Origin: a virus
Taxonomy: Duplodnaviria; Caudoviricetes
IMG/VR virus record: IMGVR_UViG_3300027983_002389
Length of the DNA: 64,000 nt
Reading direction: 5' to 3' (one strand)
How positions within the stretch are numbered: position 1 is the first letter of the stretch; each line of letters opens with the position of its first letter. Position numbers and translations under genes: made by a program. The notes beneath the pieces are model-generated. The model was not told where the DNA came from. It was given only the letters and a program-made list of their open reading frames with translations, and did no database searches. Positions 7,873-58,495 of the stretch are shown here, piece after piece.

Positions 7873-7962
7873 TTTCCGGTACGCTAATTGGTAAGCGGCG
7901 AAGCTGTTAACTTCGTGCAATCCGTCTCGCACGGTATGAAGGTTCGAGTCCTTCCTGGGGAG
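7873..7962 (+). tRNA. tRNA-Asn(GTT) with long variable arm
   Basis: CGAAG-CTGTTAA-CTTCG; T arm GAAGG-TTCGAGT-CCTTC. Confidence 0.7.
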
Positions 7963-7987
7963 CTTGTTCCCGATAGGGAATAAAAAA

Positions 7988-8473: not shown

Positions 8474-8545
8474 AGGGACGTGGTGCAAAGGCTAACATGG
8501 CAGTCTCCAAAACTGTTGATCTCGGTTCGAGTCCGAGCGTCCCTG
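8474..8545 (+). tRNA. tRNA-Trp(CCA)
   Basis: Loop CTCCAAA, discriminator G. Confidence 0.85.
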
Positions 8546-8567
8546 CTGATTGGTTCTCGACAGTCAT

Positions 8568-9571: not shown

Positions 9572-9648
9572 GGGTGTGATCGTCTAGGTTGGTCTAGGAC
9601 ACCCGCCGTTTGAGGCGGGAGACATGGGTTCAAATCCCATCACATCTT
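9572..9648 (+). tRNA. tRNA of undetermined type (Glu-like body, 8-nt loop CGTTTGAG)
   Basis: Good acceptor, D and T arms; abnormal anticodon loop. Confidence 0.6.
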
Positions 9649-9659
9649 CGCAACTTTGT

Positions 9660-10138: not shown

Positions 10139-10289
10139 AGTTATTGGATCAATTAGTGTAACGGCAGCACGCCTCCGTGGAGGGGGAAGAGTGGTTCGAT
10201 TCCAATACCAACAACTAAATGAGACAAATTAGTGTAACGGTAGCACGCCTCTCACCAAGGGGAAGATTGGTTCGATTCCAATACTCATT
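10139..10289 (+). ncRNA. tandem pair of tRNA-like RNAs with 5-nt anticodon loops
   Basis: Near-identical D and T arms; loops GTGGA (10177-10181) and CACCA (10253-10257); bulged acceptor stems. Confidence 0.55.
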
Positions 10290-10292
10290 TAT

Positions 10293-10374
10293 GCCGGGTT
10301 CGCATAGCGGCGATTGCACAGGTTTTGTAAACCTGCGGAGTTATCCCTCGTGGGTTCGAGTCCCACACCCGGCT
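10293..10374 (+). tRNA. tRNA-Thr(TGT) with long variable region
   Basis: Loop TTTGTAA. Confidence 0.75.
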
Positions 10375-10403
10375 CTGAACATTTAACCTTTTGGGGAAAT
10401 ACT

Positions 10404-11127
10404 ATGGTGCGTCTTTGGCTCGAAACTGTGCGGATTTAGACCAACGGGTCGGTTACACTTAGGTCATTATTTCTCGGTGATTCAACCGGGACAGGCTGGG
10501 TGTACTGTACTGGTGGCAAACTATCATGCACCGGAGGTAAATAATCTGGAAGTTTCCGTGAACGCCTTACGGCAATACGGTGTCCAGACCATAGTGATTC
10601 AGAAGGATGTGTTTAACGCTGAATTGTTTTTTCGATTATTGACGCTCGCAAAAATGGGTGATCTTGGTCGAATGACACAATTCAAGTCAACGGAAGAGGA
10701 CGATAGAACTGGTCAATTGCTGACTTATCCTGTTCTTATGGCGCATGATGTTGCGGGTTACTCCGAGGTCATTGTGGGTCTGGATCAGAAGCAGCATTTG
10801 GAATATGCCAGAAAGCTGTTGAAAAAATACAACAGTGTATATGGCACGACATATCCAATCCCGATAGCCAATATCGTGGTGGGACGTGTCAAAGATTTGC
10901 GTGATCCGACGAAGAAAATGTCGAAGTCATCGCCGCAGGGATGTTTATTCCTTGATGATACGGTGGATGATATTCAACAAAAGATTCGGAAGGCGACCGC
11001 AGATGAAGAGGGCCTGAATAACTTGAAGTTTTTGTATGGGGAGTTTGTAAGAGAAACGCCTCCAACAAGCAATCAAGAACTGAAAGAGAAACTGGCTAAT
11101 TCGATTGTTATGCGTCTAAGGTGTTAG
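10404..11127 (+). CDS. trpS: compact tryptophanyl-tRNA synthetase, expressed via putative +1 frameshift at 10413-10419
   Basis: GFRPTGRLHLGHY (HIGH), YPVLMAHD, VGLDQKQHLE, KMSKS; the HIGH segment lies upstream of the listed GTG start. Confidence 0.85.
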
Positions 11128-11184
11128 TGGCAGCATACTTGGCTCTTAACCAAGATGGTTCCGGTTCAAGTCCGGGTGGACGCA
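11112..11184 (+). tRNA. tRNA-Lys(CTT), overlaps the trpS stop
   Basis: Loop CTCTTAA. Confidence 0.85.
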
Positions 11185-11189
11185 CTTGA

Positions 11190-11320
11190 TGAATGGGATG
11201 TGAGTACCTACTAGGGGAACCGAATTGATCTCATAAGGGTCAAAGTCAGGACTTGGTAAAAGTCACAAGTTGCCCTGACCGGGGCTTGTGACATAGCGGG
11301 TTCGAGTCCCGTTCATTCCA
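11190..11320 (+). ncRNA. tRNA-like RNA (CAT-like arm) with pseudoknotted variable region
   Basis: T arm GCGGG-TTCGAGT-CCCGT; crossing helices GTCAGG/CCTGAC and GTCACAAGT/GCTTGTGAC. Confidence 0.55.
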
Positions 11321-33200: not shown

Positions 33201-34097
33201 ATGAACATCACTCGCATTGCACCATCGCCAACTGGTGATATGCACATTGGCACAGCCAGGACTGCATATTTCAACTGGCTCGCAGCACGGGCCAATGGCG
33301 GCAAGTTTATTCTTCGTGTTGATGACACCGATCAGAAGCGGAACGATCCAGCTTACACAGAAGTCATTCTGTCCACTATGAAGTGGTTAGGTTTGGACCA
33401 CGATGAAATCGTTTATCAGAGTTCACGATTTGACGTGTACAAGGATGCTGCTGGACTTCTCGTGAAAGACGGTTGGGCAATTCCAAAGGATGGAGCCACG
33501 GTTTTCAAGCTGAAGCCCGATCATGTTTTTCCTTCTCATTGGAAGGATGAAATAAAGGGCGACATCAAAATCACCAAGGATGACATTTCTCATTTGGATG
33601 GAATGGTTCTGATAAAATCAGATGGAAGCCCTTCTTACAACTTCTGTTCGATTGTTGATGATTCGCACATGGGCGTTAACTTCATCATTCGAGGAGTGGA
33701 TCATATTACGAATACAGCAAGGCAGGTAATGCTTTGGGATGTTCTAAACAGTGGGCGTCCCCTTCCGAGGTTTGCTCATTTGGGACTTATATGTGTTGAT
33801 GGAAAGCCAATATCCAAGCGAGACGGAGCATCGAGCATGTTGAATTACATGAACGCTGGATATGATTCTGATGCTATGTTGAATTTTCTTGCTCGACTTG
33901 GTTGGGGTCCGACAAAGGACGACAAGTCCACGACGTTACTTCCGAGAGATAAGATGCTTGAATTGTTTCTGGTTTCTGGTAAGATGAGAAGCCAGCCAGC
34001 CAGCTTTGATGTTCGCAAACTGGAATCTTTTGATCGCAAGTACAAAGCACGCAAGGGCGCTTGGCGAACAGGAGAAAAGCTGATTCTTAACTCTTAA
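33201..34097 (+). CDS. gltX: glutamyl-tRNA synthetase, catalytic domain only
   Basis: RIAPSPTG.MHIG, LRVDDTD, IRGVDH, ISKR, NFLARLGW. Confidence 0.85.
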   Translation: MNITRIAPSPTGDMHIGTARTAYFNWLAARANGGKFILRVDDTDQKRNDPAYTEVILSTMKWLGLDHDEIVYQSSRFDVYKDAAGLLVKDGWAIPKDGATVFKLKPDHVFPSHWKDEIKGDIKITKDDISHLDGMVLIKSDGSPSYNFCSIVDDSHMGVNFIIRGVDHITNTARQVMLWDVLNSGRPLPRFAHLGLICVDGKPISKRDGASSMLNYMNAGYDSDAMLNFLARLGWGPTKDDKSTTLLPRDKMLELFLVSGKMRSQPASFDVRKLESFDRKYKARKGAWRTGEKLILNS

Positions 34098-36487: not shown

Positions 36488-38203
36488 ATGGTGATGGCTA
36501 ACAAGAATCTTTTCAAGTCCGAGCGTGGCTCGATTGTTCCGGCAACTGACGTTCTCAACGAAGCTGGTGGTACTGCATACAATTTGACTGCAAAGCAGGC
36601 TCTTGCGCAGTACGTTTGCACTAGCTGTTTGAACGGCACCTACTACACGTCTGCCAAGACGCAACTGGACACTGTTCGTCAGTTGTTTACTGAGGTCGAG
36701 CCTGAGTTCCTTGGGCAGTTGGCTGTGTACTCGCACGAAAAGTCCTTCATGAAGGACTTGCCTGCTCTATTGGTCGCATTCCTGGCATCTGACAAGGGTG
36801 CTGGTGGTGGTCCTACTACGGCAACACAGGAGCGGAAGCTGAAGACGCTTCGTAAGGTTTTCCATCGTGTCATCGACAACGGCAACATGCTGCGCAACTT
36901 TGTGCAGATGATTCGTTCGGCGTCATTTGGTCGGAAGTCCTTTGGTGAAGTGCCTCGCAAGTTGATTCGGGACTGGTTCGACAATAAGTCTCCGGCTGGT
37001 ATTTTCTTCCAAAGCATCGGGAATAGCCCGTCACTGGCAGATATTATCAAGCTGACCAAGCCAAAGCCAAATACGCCTGAAAAGGCTGCTGTGTTGGCTT
37101 ATTTGCTGGGTGCAGAAACCGTTGAAGGCGAAGATGGCAAGTTGCTGGTTCGTCGTTATCTCGACCGTGTTGATAAGCAGGTTAAGGTTGCATACTCGCA
37201 GCCTTATTCCAATCTGCCGGAAATCATTCGTGAATACGAAGCGTGGAAAAAGGACAAGAGCCTCCCGGTTCCTGCCATCAACTTCCGTTTCTTGGACAAC
37301 GAGAAGCTGTCAACTGCTCAATGGGCAGATATTGCTTCTAAGGCAAATTGGCTTACGACCCTGAAGAACCTCAACGCATATGCCGACCACGGTGTATTCG
37401 GCGTTGAAGGCATGACTGACATGATCGCCGCACGTCTCAGCAATGCTGACGAAGTGCGTAAGGTACGGGTATTCCCATATCAGATCATGGTGGCTTACCT
37501 CGCAACCGACACGGTACTTTCGCTTCCGCCCAAGGTCCGTAATGCCATTCAAGATGCTATGGAAGTGGCATGTGAGAACGTGCCAGCATTGGGGAAGGTT
37601 AAGTTCTTCCCGGACGTTTCTGGCTCAATGAGAAGTGCAATTACGGGCGACCGTGGTTCGGCAACTTCTAAGGTTCGGTGTGTTGACGTGGCAGCACTGT
37701 TCGCAGTGGCAATGCTTCGTCGCAACCCGGAAGCGGAAGTAATTCCGTTTGAGCAGACGGTTCGTGAGCTTACTCTGAACCCTCGTGACAGCATCATGAC
37801 CAACGCCACGAAGCTCGCTTCGATTGGTGGTGGTGGAACCAATTGTTCGGCACCGCTTGCTTTGCTCAATGCAAAGAAGGATTGGTCGGCTGACGTGTTG
37901 GTTTATATTTCGGACTATGAGTCTTGGGTGGATAGCACGGGCACGGGCTACCAAGCTGGCAATGGCACAGCACTGCTCAATGAGTGGGTGAAGTACAAGA
38001 GCCACAACAAGAATGCCAAGCTGATTTGTATCGACCTGACCCCTCGTACAAATCATCAGGTCAAGGTCAAGGAACACGATGATATTCTCCAGGTCGGTGG
38101 ATTCTCTGACAACGTATTCAACGTGATCGCAAGATTCGTTGAAGGTGGTTGGTCAAAGGATTTTTGGGTCAAGGAGATTGAAAGCGTTCCACTGGATACT
38201 TAA
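36488..38203 (+). CDS. rsr: Ro60/TROVE-vWA RNA-binding protein (Rsr-like)
   Basis: NEAGG.AY, GTYY, VFPYQ...AY, vWA DVSGSM, GGGT, SD.ESW, GFSD.VF. Confidence 0.9.
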   Translation: MVMANKNLFKSERGSIVPATDVLNEAGGTAYNLTAKQALAQYVCTSCLNGTYYTSAKTQLDTVRQLFTEVEPEFLGQLAVYSHEKSFMKDLPALLVAFLASDKGAGGGPTTATQERKLKTLRKVFHRVIDNGNMLRNFVQMIRSASFGRKSFGEVPRKLIRDWFDNKSPAGIFFQSIGNSPSLADIIKLTKPKPNTPEKAAVLAYLLGAETVEGEDGKLLVRRYLDRVDKQVKVAYSQPYSNLPEIIREYEAWKKDKSLPVPAINFRFLDNEKLSTAQWADIASKANWLTTLKNLNAYADHGVFGVEGMTDMIAARLSNADEVRKVRVFPYQIMVAYLATDTVLSLPPKVRNAIQDAMEVACENVPALGKVKFFPDVSGSMRSAITGDRGSATSKVRCVDVAALFAVAMLRRNPEAEVIPFEQTVRELTLNPRDSIMTNATKLASIGGGGTNCSAPLALLNAKKDWSADVLVYISDYESWVDSTGTGYQAGNGTALLNEWVKYKSHNKNAKLICIDLTPRTNHQVKVKEHDDILQVGGFSDNVFNVIARFVEGGWSKDFWVKEIESVPLDT

Positions 38204-45746: not shown

Positions 45747-47381
45747 ATGATCTACGAAAACACAAACAATACCACCTTCGTCACTACGGCGATTGATTAT
45801 CCCAATGCCTTGCCGCATATCGGCACTGCTTTCGAGAAGATCGGAGCCGATGTCTACGCACGCTTCCGACGATTCCAAGGTCGTGACGTTATTTTCTCGA
45901 TGGGCAATGACGAGAATACCGTCAAGGTTCTCAAAGCAGCTAAAGAGGCAGGGCAAGAGCCAAAGCCTTATGTTGATGACATGGCAAAGGCATTCAAAGA
46001 GGTTTGGGGACAACTCAACATCTCTTATGATGACTTCATTCAAACTAGCGAGGATCGCCATTGGTTGGGCGTACAGCGATTCTTACGAGCAGTCAACGCT
46101 GCTGGATATATCCAGAAGCGTCCATACAAGGCTTTGTATTGCGAGGGCTGTGAAGAGTTCAAGAGTCCAAACAGTCTGGACTACGCAAAGCGTTGCCCTA
46201 ATCACACCGATTCGCCGCTTGTTGAACGAGAGGAAGAGAATTACTTCTTCCTTTTGTCGGCGTTCAAGCAACGTGTTGCCGATTTGATTTATCCGACTCC
46301 GTTTTCGACAATGTTTTTGAGTGTCGAGCCTGAATCTCGATATAACGAAGTCACAAACTTCATCAATACGGACCTGACTGATATTTCAATCAGTCGTCGC
46401 AATGAAGGTTGGGGCATTCCTATTCCTTGGGATGACACTCAAGCCACATACGTTTGGTTCGATGCTCTATTGAACTATTTGACGGTGATTGGATTCGGCG
46501 ATGATTGGGAGAAATTCCATAAGTATTGGCCTGCTGAAGTTCATTTCATCGGCAAGGATATTACTCGATTCCACTGTGCTTTGTTTCCAGCAATGTGTAT
46601 GGCGTACAACGAAGGCTGCGACAAGTTGGGTGAGCCTCAGTATAAGCTGGAAGGTTATCCGCAGCGTGTTTTTGCGCATGGCTTCGTCAATCAGAAGAAA
46701 GGCAATCAGGTTATCAAGGTTTCCAAGAGTGGAGAATCTATTCGTCCAATGGAACTGATCGAACAGTTCGGTTCTGATGCGTATAGATATTATTTCCTGT
46801 CGAAGTTCAACTACGATACGGATGGCGATTACAGTTTGGAACATTTCAAAGACGTGTATAATTCTGATCTCGCCAACTCCTTGGGTAACCTTGTGAGTCG
46901 TACCGTGGGTATGAGCTTGCAGTATTTCGACGGAAAGATTCCAGCTATTGCCGCTGAAGGACAATTGTGGTTCAACGAGCAGGTTGCGACCGAGTACGAA
47001 CAGTTCATTGTTGAATGCTGTTCATTCCGTCATGCCATTGAAATGACATGGAAGATCATCTTTGAAGCCAACAAGCTGATCGCAGACTCAAAGCCTTGGG
47101 AGTTGATTAAGTTGCCGGGTAACACCTGTGGTCAGGTATTGGGGCAGCTTGCTGGTGGCTTGAGGATCATCAGTCTATTGATCCGACCTTTCACTCCAAC
47201 GGTAGCCGAGAAGATTTACACGACATTCCAATGGGCTGAAGGTTGGAATGAAGTTGATTGGGAGTTCGCAAAGAAGTTGGCAGCAAACAATTTCCTGGGA
47301 CTCGAAAATGGTATTGTCTTCAACAGAAATGTTTTGGATGATGCTGGTAAGTTTCCAGTGCTTTTTCCGAGAGTGAATTAA
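45747..47381 (+). CDS. metG: methionyl-tRNA synthetase
   Basis: TTAIDYPN..PHIG, YVWFDALLNY, IGKDI.RFH, KVSKS, DLAN.LGNLVSR. Confidence 0.95.
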   Translation: MIYENTNNTTFVTTAIDYPNALPHIGTAFEKIGADVYARFRRFQGRDVIFSMGNDENTVKVLKAAKEAGQEPKPYVDDMAKAFKEVWGQLNISYDDFIQTSEDRHWLGVQRFLRAVNAAGYIQKRPYKALYCEGCEEFKSPNSLDYAKRCPNHTDSPLVEREEENYFFLLSAFKQRVADLIYPTPFSTMFLSVEPESRYNEVTNFINTDLTDISISRRNEGWGIPIPWDDTQATYVWFDALLNYLTVIGFGDDWEKFHKYWPAEVHFIGKDITRFHCALFPAMCMAYNEGCDKLGEPQYKLEGYPQRVFAHGFVNQKKGNQVIKVSKSGESIRPMELIEQFGSDAYRYYFLSKFNYDTDGDYSLEHFKDVYNSDLANSLGNLVSRTVGMSLQYFDGKIPAIAAEGQLWFNEQVATEYEQFIVECCSFRHAIEMTWKIIFEANKLIADSKPWELIKLPGNTCGQVLGQLAGGLRIISLLIRPFTPTVAEKIYTTFQWAEGWNEVDWEFAKKLAANNFLGLENGIVFNRNVLDDAGKFPVLFPRVN

Positions 47382-50414: not shown

Positions 50415-50485
50415 CTCTTAACTTGAACGCAGAGGAAAAAATGGGTCTTTAGATACACGAAAGGAACCATCAACCGGAGGTCAGT

Positions 50486-51565: not shown

Positions 51566-52789
51566 ATGATTCGTCCAATCCCACTCGCTCATGGCGTCGG
51601 GTTTTTCTCAATGGATCGTTTGCCGCAATATGCTGGCAAGTATCGTGAGGAAAATGTGGGTCGCTATTGGAACTACTATGTCACGCCAGAGTGCCAAGAG
51701 TGGCCAGAGGCGGTGACGTACAAAGGTCCGTATGTGATTGACGGGTTTTCCCCCAATCTCAATAAGAGCCTGCACGTCGGGCATCTACGTCAATTGGCTT
51801 TGGCAAAGTCTTTGGAGAGCATTATGAACCATGCTCAACAAAATCCTCACGCCAAGTTTGTATCCCTATTGGGCGCATCTCAGGGAGTTTTTCAATACGC
51901 TACTGAGCAACTGAATGGTTGGTTCGACTTCTTGAACTTCCATCCTGAATTGCACTATGACGTATTGATGCCACGAGATCAGGAGATCGTTCCTCGTTAC
52001 AAAACCAAGGTGCCAGTCTCTATCTCAACTGACTTTAACGGTAAGCCTTTTGAACATGAGGAAGAGTGTGAAGTGTGGGCCGGTCCCAAAGGGCCTGTGA
52101 TCGTCGTTCGTTGGGATGGTCGTCCTTTGTATGCCTTTCAGGACATTGCCTTCTCGAAGGTGGTGGGTCCAACTCACTACATCACTGGCACGGAGCAGCA
52201 GGAGCATTTTGCCAACCTGGGGCTTGGCGATAAACATCTGCCTATGGGTCTTGTATTGGGTGCTGACGGCAAGAAGATGAAGTCTCGTACTGGCGATAGT
52301 GTCACAGCTAAAGAAGTATTGGATCAGATTGTTTCTCAGCTTGATCCAACAGATGAACCGAACAAGCTGGCGTGGAATGTATTGGCGTGGAATTTTCTTC
52401 ACGTCGCTCGTTCCAAGTCGGTGAAGTATACCCCGGAAGAATGGACAAAGTCGGATGCTCCGGGCATGTATATTTCGTATACTTATGCTCGCATTCAATC
52501 GGCTTTGGCTGGAGAGTCTTTTGAAGAAGGCGATCTGACACAATCAGATGCAGATTTGTTGGGCTTGGCTCGTCAGCACGCCTACGCCTTGCAGCGTAGC
52601 ATTGATTCTCTCGATCCGGCAATGTTGGCAAATTACGCTTACGATCTGGCATCCAAGCTGGGTACGGCATATCATGGGGAAAAGATCAAGGGTGGACGCC
52701 CAGGCTTTAAGAACGCCTTGATGCAAGCGGTGTGGCATCTTCGTTTGTGTATGCACCAACTTGGCATGTTTCCTTTGGAGAAGATTTAA
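51566..52789 (+). CDS. argS: reduced arginyl-tRNA synthetase
   Basis: FSPNLNK.LHVGHLR, EQ..HF, KMKSRTG, Y..YTYARI.S, DALR-like C-terminus. Confidence 0.85.
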   Translation: MIRPIPLAHGVGFFSMDRLPQYAGKYREENVGRYWNYYVTPECQEWPEAVTYKGPYVIDGFSPNLNKSLHVGHLRQLALAKSLESIMNHAQQNPHAKFVSLLGASQGVFQYATEQLNGWFDFLNFHPELHYDVLMPRDQEIVPRYKTKVPVSISTDFNGKPFEHEEECEVWAGPKGPVIVVRWDGRPLYAFQDIAFSKVVGPTHYITGTEQQEHFANLGLGDKHLPMGLVLGADGKKMKSRTGDSVTAKEVLDQIVSQLDPTDEPNKLAWNVLAWNFLHVARSKSVKYTPEEWTKSDAPGMYISYTYARIQSALAGESFEEGDLTQSDADLLGLARQHAYALQRSIDSLDPAMLANYAYDLASKLGTAYHGEKIKGGRPGFKNALMQAVWHLRLCMHQLGMFPLEKI

Positions 52790-57568: not shown

Positions 57569-58495
57569 ATGAGCAACGTAATCAAAGAGCTATACGACAA
57601 GGGGCTGACCAACCTGGGAGGACACCGTTGGATGCCGGATAATCTCCATTATGTGACCATGATGGGATCAGTCGCCTATGGAGTATCGAGCGACACGTCA
57701 GATGTAGACGTTTACTCGTTTTGTATTCCTAACAAGGAAGACTTATTTCCACATCTTCGTGGTGAGGTCGTAGGTTTTGGCGATGCAAAACATGCCAACA
57801 ACCGATTTACCAATTATCAAGAACACCACATTAAAGACGTTGGTGCCGAGAAAGAATACGATCTCAACATCTACAACATTGTTGACTTCTTTCAATTGGT
57901 AATGGAAAACAATCCCAATATGATTGACTCTCTGTTTACTCCTCAGTGGTGTGTATTGCACAGCACTAGAGTTGGTCAGATGGTCCGTGAAAAGAGGAAG
58001 ATTTTTCTTCATCTAGGAAGCTGGCACACTTTTAAGGGATACGCATATAATCAACTGAAGAAGTGTGGCTCTAAGAATAGAACCGGGAAACGTAAGCAAG
58101 TGGTAGACGAGATGGGCTTCGACCCTAAGTTTGCTTACCATATTGTGAGAAACCTGGGAGAAATCGAACAGATTCTCACTGAGGGCGATCTGGACCTTCA
58201 GCGAAACAGAGAGCAATTGAAAGCTATTCGCCGTGGGGATTGGTCGCTTGAACAAATCGAAGAATATTTTGAGAGGAAAGAAATTGAGTTAGAAACTCTG
58301 TATAATGAAAATAAAGCCGGTCTACCTTGGGGGCCTAAACATGATGGTCTGCAAGAGAAGGTTAAGCAACTTCTCTTTCAGTGCCTCGAAGAACACTACG
58401 GGTCGCTTGACAAATGTATTGTCAATCCAGACGCCGCAGTGATGGCTCTCCGGGAGGTTGGCGATGTTCTCGCAAAGTACAGAAGCCTTCTATGA
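57569..58495 (+). CDS. Pol-beta-superfamily nucleotidyltransferase (RlaP/YcgL-like)
   Basis: GSVAYG.....SDVD, NPNMID.LF, F.GYA..QL, K..YH. Confidence 0.85.
   Translation: MSNVIKELYDKGLTNLGGHRWMPDNLHYVTMMGSVAYGVSSDTSDVDVYSFCIPNKEDLFPHLRGEVVGFGDAKHANNRFTNYQEHHIKDVGAEKEYDLNIYNIVDFFQLVMENNPNMIDSLFTPQWCVLHSTRVGQMVREKRKIFLHLGSWHTFKGYAYNQLKKCGSKNRTGKRKQVVDEMGFDPKFAYHIVRNLGEIEQILTEGDLDLQRNREQLKAIRRGDWSLEQIEEYFERKEIELETLYNENKAGLPWGPKHDGLQEKVKQLLFQCLEEHYGSLDKCIVNPDAAVMALREVGDVLAKYRSLL

What the first reader, a model, noticed from the sequence alone, without database searches (positions are those of the whole stretch)
10393..11127. TrpRS apparently switched on by a +1 frameshift at a hungry Trp codon (CUU-UGG-C)
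Seen: SD GGGGAA (10393-10398) precedes ATG GTG CGT CTT TGG C, and this frame stops at TAG 10437-10439. The TrpRS frame, including the essential GFRPTGRLHLGHY HIGH motif, is +1 and has no ATG/GTG/TTG upstream of that motif. Slipping CUU to UUU at 10413-10416 gives MVRL-GSKLCGFRPTGRLHLGHY, a normal TrpRS N-terminus (240 aa). Known: prfB uses AGGGGG-UAU-CUU-UGA-C, an internal SD 3 nt before CUU plus a slow A-site codon. Here the site reads GGUG-CGU-CUU-UGG-C, with the same geometry but a Trp codon. Inference: TrpRS is made mainly when Trp-tRNA is scarce, i.e. recoding-based autoregulation of a synthetase. I do not know of a described example.
Basis: partly seen in the sequence, partly recalled or inferred. 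Interest (0 to 1): 0.93.

Follow-up and report, generated by a model that had tools for sequence, protein, structure and literature searches.

The report
Trp-codon frameshift switch in phage TrpRS
A giant-phage gene for a miniature tryptophan tRNA-charging enzyme can only be read if the ribosome slips one base forward at a signal built like the bacterial release-factor-2 switch, with a tryptophan codon where the stop codon would be; this points to a previously undescribed way of making the enzyme when charged tRNA-Trp runs short.

Summary
SD + ATG (10404) opens an 11-codon frame, ATG GTG CGT CTT TGG C...TAG. The TrpRS frame is +1 and has no start codon before its HIGH motif.

It is not an assembly error. 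Contigs from four runs show no indel. Fourteen homologous loci (53-97% aa identity, synonymous sites saturated, dN/dS about 0.1) keep the same layout:
- an SD and ATG in frame 0;
- a G-rich SD-like element (GGTG, GGAGG or GAGG) ending exactly 3 nt before an invariant CTT TGG;
- a frame-0 stop soon after.

Stops in either frame confine the frame change to the 8 nt CT-CTT-TGG. This is the prfB cassette (SD-like, 3 nt, CUU UGA C) with UGG in place of UGA.

In 120 homologues I found no Trp among 24,806 residues downstream of ANYHAP (window ORFs 2.0% W). The sensor UGG therefore appears to be the only Trp codon a ribosome meets.

Two nested relatives and the outgroup start with a plain in-frame ATG, which fits one gain and at least two losses.

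I rate the +1 frameshift at about 0.9. Trp-tRNA-dependent autoregulation is inferred, at about 0.6. I found no description in the papers searched. Earlier unchecked notes of this scan report analogous cognate-codon sensors on other DNA (archaeal trpS, Saccharibacteria hisG).

The parts
10293..10375 (+). tRNA-Thr(TGT) directly upstream. The TrpRS gene sits inside the tRNA array, so its leader probably begins at the processed 3' end of this tRNA.
   Evidence: ARAGORN; Rfam tRNA, 52.9 bits. tRNA T-arm sequence is also seen just upstream in L001, L002, L007/L102 and L099.
10393..10398 (+). Shine-Dalgarno GGGGAA for the frame-0 start, 5 nt before the ATG.
   Evidence: An SD-like GGAG, AAGGAGG, GAGG or AAGGTGG lies 5-9 nt before the frame-0 ATG in all 15 loci.
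10404..10439 (+). Frame-0 mini-ORF MVRLWLETVRI*, holding the start codon and the frameshift cassette.
   Evidence: The short frame-0 ORF is conserved in position but not in peptide: MVCLW*, MMVCLWL*, MNRRILWL* and others.
10406..10409 (+). Internal SD-like element GGTG, ending 3 nt before the slippery codon.
   Evidence: Positions -7 to -4 relative to CTT read G[G/A][T/G]G in 14 of 14 sequences. GGAGG occurs in L105 and L106, GAGG in L104, and GGTG without an ATG in L107.
10410..10412 (+). 3-nt spacer, which is the E-site codon (CGT) at the moment of slippage.
   Evidence: Variable across loci (CGT, TGT, TTA, ACT, GTG, ATA) but always 3 nt long.
10413..10416 (+). Slippery CTT_T: the P-site Leu codon CTT re-pairs with TTT in the +1 frame.
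   Evidence: Invariant in 15 loci, although CTT is only 3 of 27 Leu codons in this gene. The overlapping +1-frame codon varies (GTC, TAC, CTC, TGC) but always ends in C.
10416..10418 (+). Frame-0 A-site codon TGG (Trp), the proposed sensor. It is followed by C 10419.
   Evidence: Invariant in 15 loci. The next base is C in 12 of 14. It appears to be the only Trp codon on the ribosome's path, because the product has no Trp.
10417..11127 (+). +1-frame ORF of the compact TrpRS: 236 codons plus stop, 240 aa with the MVRL head.
   Evidence: PF00579 at 7e-30. TIGR00233 scores 107 bits, below its cut-off of 176.75. The AF2 model has pLDDT 94.6 and its best Foldseek matches are bacterial TrpRS with TMq 0.82-0.85. 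dN/dS is 0.07-0.12.
10456..10467 (+). HIGH motif (HLGH).
   Evidence: G16 and H17 are invariant and H14 nearly invariant in alignment A1.
10915..10929 (+). KMSKS motif.
   Evidence: K167, M168 and K170 are invariant and S169 and S171 nearly invariant in A1. The motif aligns to KMSKS of B. stearothermophilus TrpRS.
11112..11185 (+). tRNA-Lys(CTT), which overlaps the last 16 nt of the TrpRS ORF including its stop codon.
   Evidence: ARAGORN; Rfam tRNA, 49.3 bits.
8474..8546 (+). Phage tRNA-Trp(CCA) with a normal 7-nt anticodon loop CTCCAAA and G73.

Best explanation
The gene is expressed by a programmed +1 ribosomal frameshift of the prfB (release factor 2) type.

Proposed mechanism:
1. Ribosomes start at ATG 10404 and read Met-Val-Arg-Leu.
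2. With peptidyl-tRNA-Leu on CUU in the P site and UGG in the A site, an SD-like GGUG 3 nt upstream pairs with the anti-SD.
3. If Trp-tRNA(Trp) does not arrive quickly, tRNA-Leu re-pairs with UUU. GGC (Gly) is read next, and the ribosome goes on to make a 240-aa compact TrpRS.
4. If Trp-tRNA(Trp) does arrive, the ribosome stays in frame 0 and stops after a useless short peptide.

Because the enzyme makes the very molecule that decodes the sensor codon, this is negative feedback. Because the enzyme contains no Trp, it can still be made when Trp-tRNA is lacking.

Shown here: the frame architecture, the confinement of the frame change to 8 nt, conservation of the cassette, purifying selection on the +1 ORF, and the Trp-free product. 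Inferred: the slippage itself, the stimulation by GGUG, and the dependence on Trp-tRNA supply.
For: (1) The layout is conserved in the window and 14 other loci at 53-97% aa identity. Each has an SD and ATG in frame 0, G[G/A][T/G]G at -7 to -4, CTT TGG, and the TrpRS frame at +1.

(2) The frame change is confined. L099 has a +1-frame TGA at -5 to -3 (W * L F G). L007/L102 has a TGA directly before the TGG. L008, L104, L105, L106 and L107 have a TGA at -14 to -12. L003 has a frame-0 TGA right after the TGG. The switch must therefore occur within CT-CTT-TGG.

(3) Selection acts on nucleotides, not on the +1-frame peptide. The codon overlapping CTT is GTC, TAC, CTC or TGC, always NNC, and TTT is never TTC. 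In the flanking CGFRPTG codons, synonymous sites vary freely, and pS is 0.72-0.92 between the window and every locus except its near-identical relative L001 (0.26).

(4) From GGC onward the +1 frame is under protein-level selection: G-S-K-L-C-G-F is kept with synonymous changes and dN/dS is 0.07-0.12.

(5) There is no indel in contigs from four runs.

(6) The gene callers agree. Of the 120 best homologues, 75 are called from after strand 1 or HIGH, 20 from the Leu codon, and 13 read through the cassette. All 7 truncated or odd calls that I fetched as DNA carry the cassette.

(7) I counted 0 Trp in 24,806 residues of 120 homologues, against 2.0% W in the window's other ORFs and 0.54% in 49 cellular TrpRS.

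(8) The enzyme looks like a real TrpRS. HIGH and KMSKS are present, YPVLMAHD and GLDQKQH align to the Trp pocket and GEDQ of BsTrpRS, and Foldseek gives TMq 0.82-0.85.

(9) Precedent: CUU_U is the conserved RF2 shift site with a C after the UGA and an internal SD. Ty1 CUU_AGG_C shifts at a slow sense codon. +1 shifts rise when the A-site aa-tRNA is limiting (Atkins et al. 2016, PMC5009743; PMC2941156).
Against: There is no experimental datum: no RNA run, peptide or reporter.

UGG is an ordinary sense codon, and the phage brings its own tRNA-Trp, so basal slippage may be low or may not depend on Trp supply.

In this window the internal SD is only 4 nt (GGUG) and overlaps the start codon. Whether the anti-SD can engage it three codons after initiation is unknown, and its rRNA register differs by about 2 nt from prfB's AGGGGG.

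The host and its 16S tail are unknown.

The protein is about 90 aa shorter than cellular TrpRS and scores below the TIGR00233 cut-off, so its activity as a true TrpRS is not certain.

The Trp-free composition is partly inherited and so is not 120 independent observations. Two ATG-type relatives are also Trp-free (L109, L013, L020 have 0 W).
Confidence: 0.7

Rival explanations
1. A real programmed +1 frameshift that is constitutive. It sets a fixed, low output of TrpRS or acts as a ribosome sink. UGG is kept for kinetic or context reasons and not as a Trp-tRNA sensor.
For: All the architectural evidence fits this equally well. UGG is not a rare codon by nature. The phage carries a tRNA-Trp gene. 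Two nested relatives dispense with the cassette.
Against: UGG is invariant in 15 loci while the surrounding positions drift, and no locus uses a stop or another slow codon. The A-site codon is exactly the cognate codon of the encoded enzyme. The product contains no Trp. The other three aaRS-like genes in the window have no cassette.
Confidence: 0.18
2. There is no frameshift. The mini-ORF is a Trp-codon leader peptide (uORF), and TrpRS starts at a non-canonical or weak codon in its own frame (CTG 10426, ATA 10399, or TTG in relatives), by coupling or reinitiation after the uORF stop.
For: The codon at 10426 is TTG in L003, L099, L100, L103, L106, L121 and in a soil variant of this phage. Many gene callers start there. 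The frame-0 stop often lies 1-4 nt before it.
Against: The same codon is CTT in L007 and L008, CTC in L105 and L107, ATT in L104, and CTG here and in L108. In L007/L102 the +1 frame has no ATG, GTG, TTG, CTG or ATN codon between its TGA and the HIGH motif. G-S-K upstream of that Leu is conserved as protein with synonymous changes. This model gives no reason for an invariant CTT or for an SD-like element at exactly -4. No conserved hairpins are present and there is no Rfam leader.
Confidence: 0.06
3. The frame is restored by another route: transcriptional slippage on the T run, or four-base decoding (CUUU or UGGC) by an unusual phage tRNA.
For: The window holds 40 tRNA genes, one with an abnormal 6-nt anticodon loop (9572-9649). 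Deleting one T would give the same protein.
Against: The T run is only 3 nt. By my own knowledge, RNA polymerase slippage needs much longer runs. No tRNA with an 8-nt anticodon loop and no tRNA-Leu was found in the window. tRNA-Trp has a normal loop. The base after TGG varies (C, T, G), which argues against a fixed UGGN quadruplet. The SD-like element at -4 is unexplained by this model.
Confidence: 0.03
4. Artefact or dead gene: an assembly indel, or a pseudogene inherited by the clade.
For: A single extra base in a T run is the commonest sequencing error.
Against: The sequence is identical, with no indel, in contigs from four runs in four studies. The same break is found in 14 other loci from unrelated samples. 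dN/dS is 0.07-0.12 with saturated dS, and HIGH and KMSKS are intact.
Confidence: 0.02

Closest known systems
prfB (bacterial release factor 2) autoregulatory +1 frameshift: SD-like AGGGGG, 3 nt, CUU_UGA_C
   Same: Both have a short frame-0 ORF followed by the functional ORF in +1. Both have a CUU_U slippery P-site codon, an SD-like element ending 3 nt upstream, and mostly a C after the A-site codon. In both, the product is the factor that governs decoding of the A-site codon. Both are present in most but not all members, with secondary losses (PMC5009743).
   Different: Here the A-site codon is the sense codon UGG, not the stop UGA. The sensed molecule would be Trp-tRNA(Trp), not a release factor. 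The site is at codon 4-6 rather than 26. The SD-like element is often only GGUG and overlaps the start codon. The gene is a phage synthetase.
Yeast Ty1 / ABP140 CUU_AGG_C (and EST3) +1 frameshift at a slow sense codon
   Same: The same P-site codon CUU is followed by a sense codon whose tRNA supply sets the efficiency. The next +1-frame codon is GGC, as here (PMC5009743).
   Different: The yeast case is eukaryotic, has no SD stimulator, uses a different tRNA-Leu (UAG) and slips to UUA. The hungry codon is unrelated to the function of the product, so there is no feedback loop.
[quoted passage not shown]
   Same: These show that +1 slippage at a CUU_N-type site competes with aa-tRNA selection in the A site and rises when that aa-tRNA is limiting (cited through PMC2941156, and PMC5009743; details from my own memory).
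   Different: They are artificial constructs or starvation errors, not a conserved natural gene-expression device.
Known controls of trpS and trp genes: T-box riboswitch, TrpL leader-peptide attenuation, TRAP
   Same: Same input (uncharged versus charged tRNA-Trp, or Trp codon translation) and same output (more Trp-related enzyme).
   Different: Those act through alternative RNA hairpins on transcription or initiation. Here there is no conserved structure, no T-box, and a single UGG rather than tandem Trp codons. The coding frame itself is switched.
Bacterial TrpRS (class Ic aminoacyl-tRNA synthetase, TIGR00233)
   Same: Rossmann fold, HIGH, KMSKS, the YPxLMAxD Trp pocket and GxDQ.
   Different: About 240 aa rather than about 330. 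The C-terminal helical (anticodon-binding) part is shortened. It scores below the equivalog cut-off, contains no Trp, and forms a phage-only clade.

Membership tests
prfB-type programmed +1 frameshift cassette | Short frame-0 ORF with its own SD and ATG; the functional ORF lies in +1 without a start codon | tested here: met
   conserved in 15 loci.
prfB-type programmed +1 frameshift cassette | Slippery P-site codon CUU followed by U (CUU_U) | tested here: met
   Invariant CTTT in 15 loci. The frame change is confined to CT-CTT-TGG by stops in L099 and L003.
prfB-type programmed +1 frameshift cassette | Internal SD-like element about 3 nt 5' of the shift codon | tested here: met
   G[G/A][T/G]G at -7 to -4 in 14 of 14 sequences; GGAGG in L105 and L106. 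In this window it is only GGTG.
prfB-type programmed +1 frameshift cassette | A-site codon is the stop UGA, read by the gene's own product RF2 | tested here: not met
   The A-site codon is TGG (Trp) in all 15 loci. So this is not a member of the RF2 system itself but a variant of its design.
prfB-type programmed +1 frameshift cassette | Frameshifting occurs and responds to the level of the product | not testable with these tools
   Needs a reporter, MS or an in vitro translation assay.
Tryptophanyl-tRNA synthetase (TIGR00233 / PF00579) | HIGH and KMSKS signature motifs of class I | tested here: met
   HLGH at 10456-67 and KMSKS at 10915-29.
Tryptophanyl-tRNA synthetase (TIGR00233 / PF00579) | Trp-specific pocket (YPxLMAxD, with the Asp that binds the indole NH) and GxDQ | tested here: met
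   YPVLMAHD and VGLDQKQH align to YPPLMAADIL and VGEDQKQH of 1i6k/5dk4. The role of the Asp is from my own knowledge.
Tryptophanyl-tRNA synthetase (TIGR00233 / PF00579) | Full-length equivalog score and complete C-terminal anticodon-binding domain | tested here: not met
   TIGR00233 scores 107 bits against a cut-off of 176.75 and covers 6-222 of 328. Foldseek TMt is about 0.6 against TMq 0.82-0.85. Only three helices follow KMSKS.
Tryptophanyl-tRNA synthetase (TIGR00233 / PF00579) | Charges tRNA-Trp with tryptophan | not testable with these tools
   Needs an aminoacylation assay.
Leader-peptide (TrpL-type) attenuator | Tandem cognate codons plus alternative terminator/antiterminator hairpins | tested here: not met
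   There is a single UGG. RNAalifold gives -1.8 kcal/mol, with only 4 predicted pairs and no credible helix. No Rfam leader is found.

The most novel reading that the evidence does not exclude
A natural charged-tRNA sensor built into the reading frame. Translation of a synthetase is switched on by A-site vacancy at its own cognate codon, and the enzyme is purged of that amino acid so that it can be made during the shortage. If unchecked notes of this scan on archaeal synthetase leaders and a Saccharibacteria hisG hold up, this phage cassette would be the clearest, most prfB-like member of a wider and so far undescribed class of 'cognate-codon frameshift sensors'.
Probability: 0.55. Interest if true: 0.93.

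Novelty: new variant of a known kind. Interest (0 to 1): 0.88.

Why it matters
RF2 has long been the textbook case, and by far the most widely conserved one, of autoregulatory +1 frameshifting in bacteria. 'Hungry codon' shifting has been known only as a laboratory or stress error. A conserved natural cassette in which the stop codon of the RF2 design is replaced by the cognate sense codon of a synthetase would show three things. The design is modular. Ribosomes can serve as direct gauges of one aminoacyl-tRNA pool. Giant phages tune their own translation apparatus (tRNA arrays plus mini-synthetases) with it.

It also has practical consequences. Gene callers mis-annotate about 90% of this family: 95 of 120 calls are truncated, most of them (75) beginning at or beyond the catalytic HIGH motif, and another 13 run spuriously upstream through the cassette. 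The 20-nt cassette could also serve as a portable Trp-tRNA reporter.

Tried and rejected
- blastn of 10200-11300 against the GenBank phage collection found no match.
- The metagenome-contig scan with the family alignment was swamped by cellular TrpRS (30-48% identity) and gave only outgroup or control loci.
- IMG/VR holds only six contigs of the family, and the GTDB genomes hold one.
- No whole genome is held for this window.
- No RNA holder was listed among the public runs. The only read-laying run used assembled contigs, so read-level heterogeneity and expression could not be seen.
- One homologue (P0029) returned no DNA.
- The Sipley and Goldman 1993 paper is not held.
- Literature searches for trpS or TrpRS with frameshifting, 'CUU UGG', and huge-phage synthetases with frameshift found nothing relevant.
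- No conserved RNA secondary structure surrounds the cassette, and there is no Rfam family other than the flanking tRNAs.
- The motif alone is not significant in the window.
- I looked for similar cassettes at the other aaRS-like genes of the window (GluRS-like, MetRS-like, ArgRS-like). All start with a plain ATG.
- A mini-ORF ATG GGT CTT TAG at 50441-50452 looked prfB-like, but its +1 frame closes after 14 codons, so I dismissed it as chance.
- Not done: a search for longer or fused forms of the protein, a homodimer prediction, and checking the earlier notes on archaeal trpS.

Full report
**What is in the sequence**

The window is part of a giant-phage genome. It carries 40 tRNA genes between 6.2 and 31 kb. 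It also carries gp32-like and HNH genes and four aminoacyl-tRNA-synthetase-like genes. A 340-kb IMG/VR viral contig is 97% identical over the gene studied.

Between tRNA-Thr (10293-10375) and tRNA-Lys (11112-11185) lies a TrpRS-like ORF. The finding's coordinates are exact:
- GGGGAA at 10393-98.
- ATG 10404, GTG, CGT, CTT 10413-15, TGG 10416-18, then C.
- Frame 0 ends at TAG 10437-39 after 11 codons.
- The +1 frame is open from TAA 10384-86 and encodes ...GSKLCGFRPTGRLHLGHY.... It has no ATG, GTG or TTG until GTG 10477, which is beyond the HIGH motif.

**Is it an error?**

No. Contigs from four public runs in four studies (freshwater, estuary, soil, glacier) lie on 10250-11250 without a single inserted or deleted letter. 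Two are identical, and one has a word depth of 340. The soil variant differs at 10426 (CTG to TTG). That change is synonymous in the +1 frame and non-synonymous in frame 0.

**Homologues**

The protein has thousands of relatives of 200-286 aa, many on contigs of 0.3-0.67 Mb. Their gene calls are revealing. Of the best 120:
- 75 are called from a start after strand 1 or HIGH;
- 20 are called from the Leu codon of LCGF;
- 13 run upstream through a conserved '...WCVFGSK' in the +1 frame;
- 12 have an ordinary start such as MK(R)LCGF.

Fourteen loci besides the window, 53-97% identical in protein, show the same design:
- an SD 5-9 nt before a frame-0 ATG;
- a G-rich element G[G/A][T/G]G at -7 to -4;
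- a 3-nt spacer;
- an invariant CTT TGG, followed by C in 12 of 14;
- a frame-0 stop, usually one codon later (TGG CTC TAA).

Examples of the cassette:

| Locus | Cassette |
|---|---|
| Window | GGTG-CGT-CTT-TGG-C |
| L105 | GGAGG-TGT-CTT-TGG-C |
| L106 | GGAGG-ATA-CTT-TGG-C |
| L104 | GAGG-GTG-CTT-TGG-C |
| L107 | ACGGTG-TGT-CTT-TGG-C, with the ATG two codons further upstream |

The GGTG is therefore kept for its own sake and not merely as part of ATG-GTG. By my own knowledge, E. coli prfB reads AGGGGG-TAT-CTT-TGA-C. The review PMC5009743 confirms CUU_U, the C after the UGA and the internal SD.

**Where the frame must change**

- In L099 the +1 frame reads W-stop-L-F-G, with a TGA at -5 to -3.
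- In L007/L102 a TGA directly precedes the TGG.
- In L008 and L104-L107 the frame-0 'ATGA' puts a +1-frame TGA at -14 to -12.
- In L003 frame 0 ends with a TGA directly after the TGG.

Together these leave only the 8 nt CT-CTT-TGG for the change of frame.

The apparent '+1-frame peptide WCVFG' is a by-product of nucleotide constraints. The codon overlapping CTT is GTC, TAC, CTC or TGC (V, Y, L, C), always ending in C. TTT is never TTC, and W is simply the TGG of A-TGG. From GGC onward the +1 frame behaves as a protein: G-S-K-L-C-G-F-R-P-T-G is kept with free synonymous variation. Pairwise dN/dS is 0.07-0.12 where it can be estimated. Synonymous sites are saturated against every locus except the near-identical L001, L099 and L103.

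This rules out a pseudogene. It also makes the invariance of CTTTGG and the -7 to -4 element meaningful, even though the bare motif is not rare (0.69 expected per window). Among 121 fetched loci, the motif sits at the same place in all 28 loci of this clade. It occurs nowhere else except for one stray match.

**Rival starts**

The Leu codon at 10426 is TTG in six loci but CTG here and in L108, CTT in L007 and L008, CTC in L105 and L107, and ATT in L104. L007/L102 has no start-like codon at all in the +1 frame before HIGH. ATA 10399 has no counterpart, and in six loci it lies upstream of +1-frame stops.

There is no conserved RNA structure and no Rfam element besides the tRNAs, so an attenuator or T-box is not present. 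The T run is too short for transcriptional slippage. tRNA-Trp has a normal anticodon loop, and no tRNA in the window has an 8-nt loop.

**Phylogeny**

The phage mini-TrpRS forms a clade (100/100) apart from cellular TrpRS. Four ATG-type members branch first. A 95/92-supported clade then holds all 14 cassette-bearing sequences plus two ATG-type ones, L109 and L110. L110 is sister to the cassette-bearing L008 at 99/97. This fits one gain and at least two losses, the same pattern as prfB, where about 87% of genes use the shift (PMC5009743).

**The enzyme**

HIGH and KMSKS are intact. YPVLMAHD and VGLDQKQH align with the Trp pocket and GEDQ motif of B. stearothermophilus TrpRS. The AF2 model is confident (pLDDT 94.6), and its best structural matches are all bacterial TrpRS, with TMq 0.82-0.85 and TMt about 0.6. 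The C-terminal helical part is shortened, and the TIGR00233 score (107) is below the cut-off. It is therefore a compact TrpRS-like enzyme whose activity remains to be shown.

**A new supporting observation**

The 120 closest homologues contain no tryptophan at all in 24,806 residues downstream of the ANYHAP motif. The only W's in the called proteins are the spurious cassette read-through and one W in an ATG-type member. For comparison:
- other ORFs of the window have 2.0% W;
- 49 cellular TrpRS have 0.54% W, mostly 1-2 per protein;
- ATG-type phage members have 0-2 W each.

On the productive path the ribosome therefore never needs Trp-tRNA, and the single UGG it meets is the sensor codon. This is what one would expect of an enzyme meant to be made when Trp-tRNA is lacking. 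Shared ancestry weakens the statistics, however.

**Mechanism proposed**

Shown: the architecture, the 8-nt confinement, the conservation, the selection, and the Trp-free product.

Inferred:
- peptidyl-tRNA-Leu slips from CUU to UUU;
- GGUG or GGAGG pairing with the anti-SD at a 3-nt spacing stimulates the slip;
- the rate of Trp-tRNA(Trp) arrival at UGG decides between the dead-end peptide and TrpRS.

This gives negative feedback like that of RF2. Precedent for the kinetic competition comes from RF2-site and hungry-codon work, as summarised in PMC5009743 and PMC2941156.

I put the frameshift itself at about 0.9 and the Trp-tRNA dependence at about 0.6. The other aaRS-like genes of the window start normally, so the device is specific to TrpRS.

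**Novelty**

I found no description in six full-text searches or in the 2016 recoding review. Earlier notes of this scan, which are AI notes and unchecked by me, report analogous cognate-codon frameshift leaders before archaeal synthetase genes and a prfB-type site with a His codon in Saccharibacteria hisG. They are not homologous to this locus but suggest a wider class. I classify this as a new variant of a known kind.

Noticed in passing
window 11112-11127: The last 16 nt of the TrpRS ORF, including its TAG stop, lie inside tRNA-Lys(CTT) (11112-11185; ARAGORN and Rfam). RNase P cutting at 11112 would leave a stop-less mRNA, so processing of the tRNA and translation of TrpRS may compete.
   Followed up: partly
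window 9572-9649: tRNA-like gene whose anticodon stem CCCGCC/GGCGGG encloses only 6 nt (GTTTGA). ARAGORN reports a 2-letter anticodon 'tt'. It could be a Gln(TTG)-like tRNA with a shortened loop or a decayed copy.
   Followed up: partly
window 6221-31072: 40 tRNA genes in 25 kb, several in duplicate (Asp x3, Gly(TCC) x3, Gln x5). No Leu, Ser, Tyr, Cys or Phe tRNA was found in the window. Some are unusually long (Asn 91 nt at 7873-7963; Lys 83 nt; Thr 83 nt).
   Followed up: no
window 10223-10290: Sub-threshold tRNA match (Rfam 26.1 bits against a gathering score of 29) between tRNA-Glu and tRNA-Thr that ARAGORN missed. It may be a divergent or decaying tRNA.
   Followed up: no
window 33201-34097, 45747-47381, 51566-52789: Three more synthetase-like genes: a 298-aa GluRS/GlnRS catalytic-domain-only protein (GluQRS-sized), a 544-aa MetRS-like protein, and a 407-aa ArgRS-like protein with a weak catalytic-domain match plus DALR. 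All start with ordinary in-frame ATGs.
   Followed up: partly
window 36488-38203 and 57569-58495: A Ro60 vWA-domain protein and an RlaP (RNA-repair pathway nucleotidyltransferase) homologue. These are RNA quality-control or repair genes next to the tRNA and synthetase region.
   Followed up: no
window 50441-50452: Mini-ORF ATG GGT CTT TAG after GAGGAAAAA, upstream of an HNH endonuclease gene. It is superficially prfB-like (CTT + stop), but the +1 frame closes after 14 codons, so it is probably chance.
   Followed up: yes
L105:1-130 and L105 about 1485-1535: In this relative a group II intron reverse transcriptase gene lies just upstream of the TrpRS gene. The TrpRS also carries an 11-residue insertion (EGHSVGKPHGS) between the shift site and strand 1.
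   Followed up: no
window 10426: The soil-metagenome variant of this phage has T instead of C (CTG to TTG). This creates a potential TTG start at the Leu codon of LCGF, and the position is polymorphic among close strains.
   Followed up: partly
window 11190-11320: An earlier first-reader note (e1-5482748) describes a tRNA-like RNA with a pseudoknotted variable arm here. ARAGORN and Rfam report nothing between tRNA-Lys and tRNA-Glu (11330).
   Followed up: no
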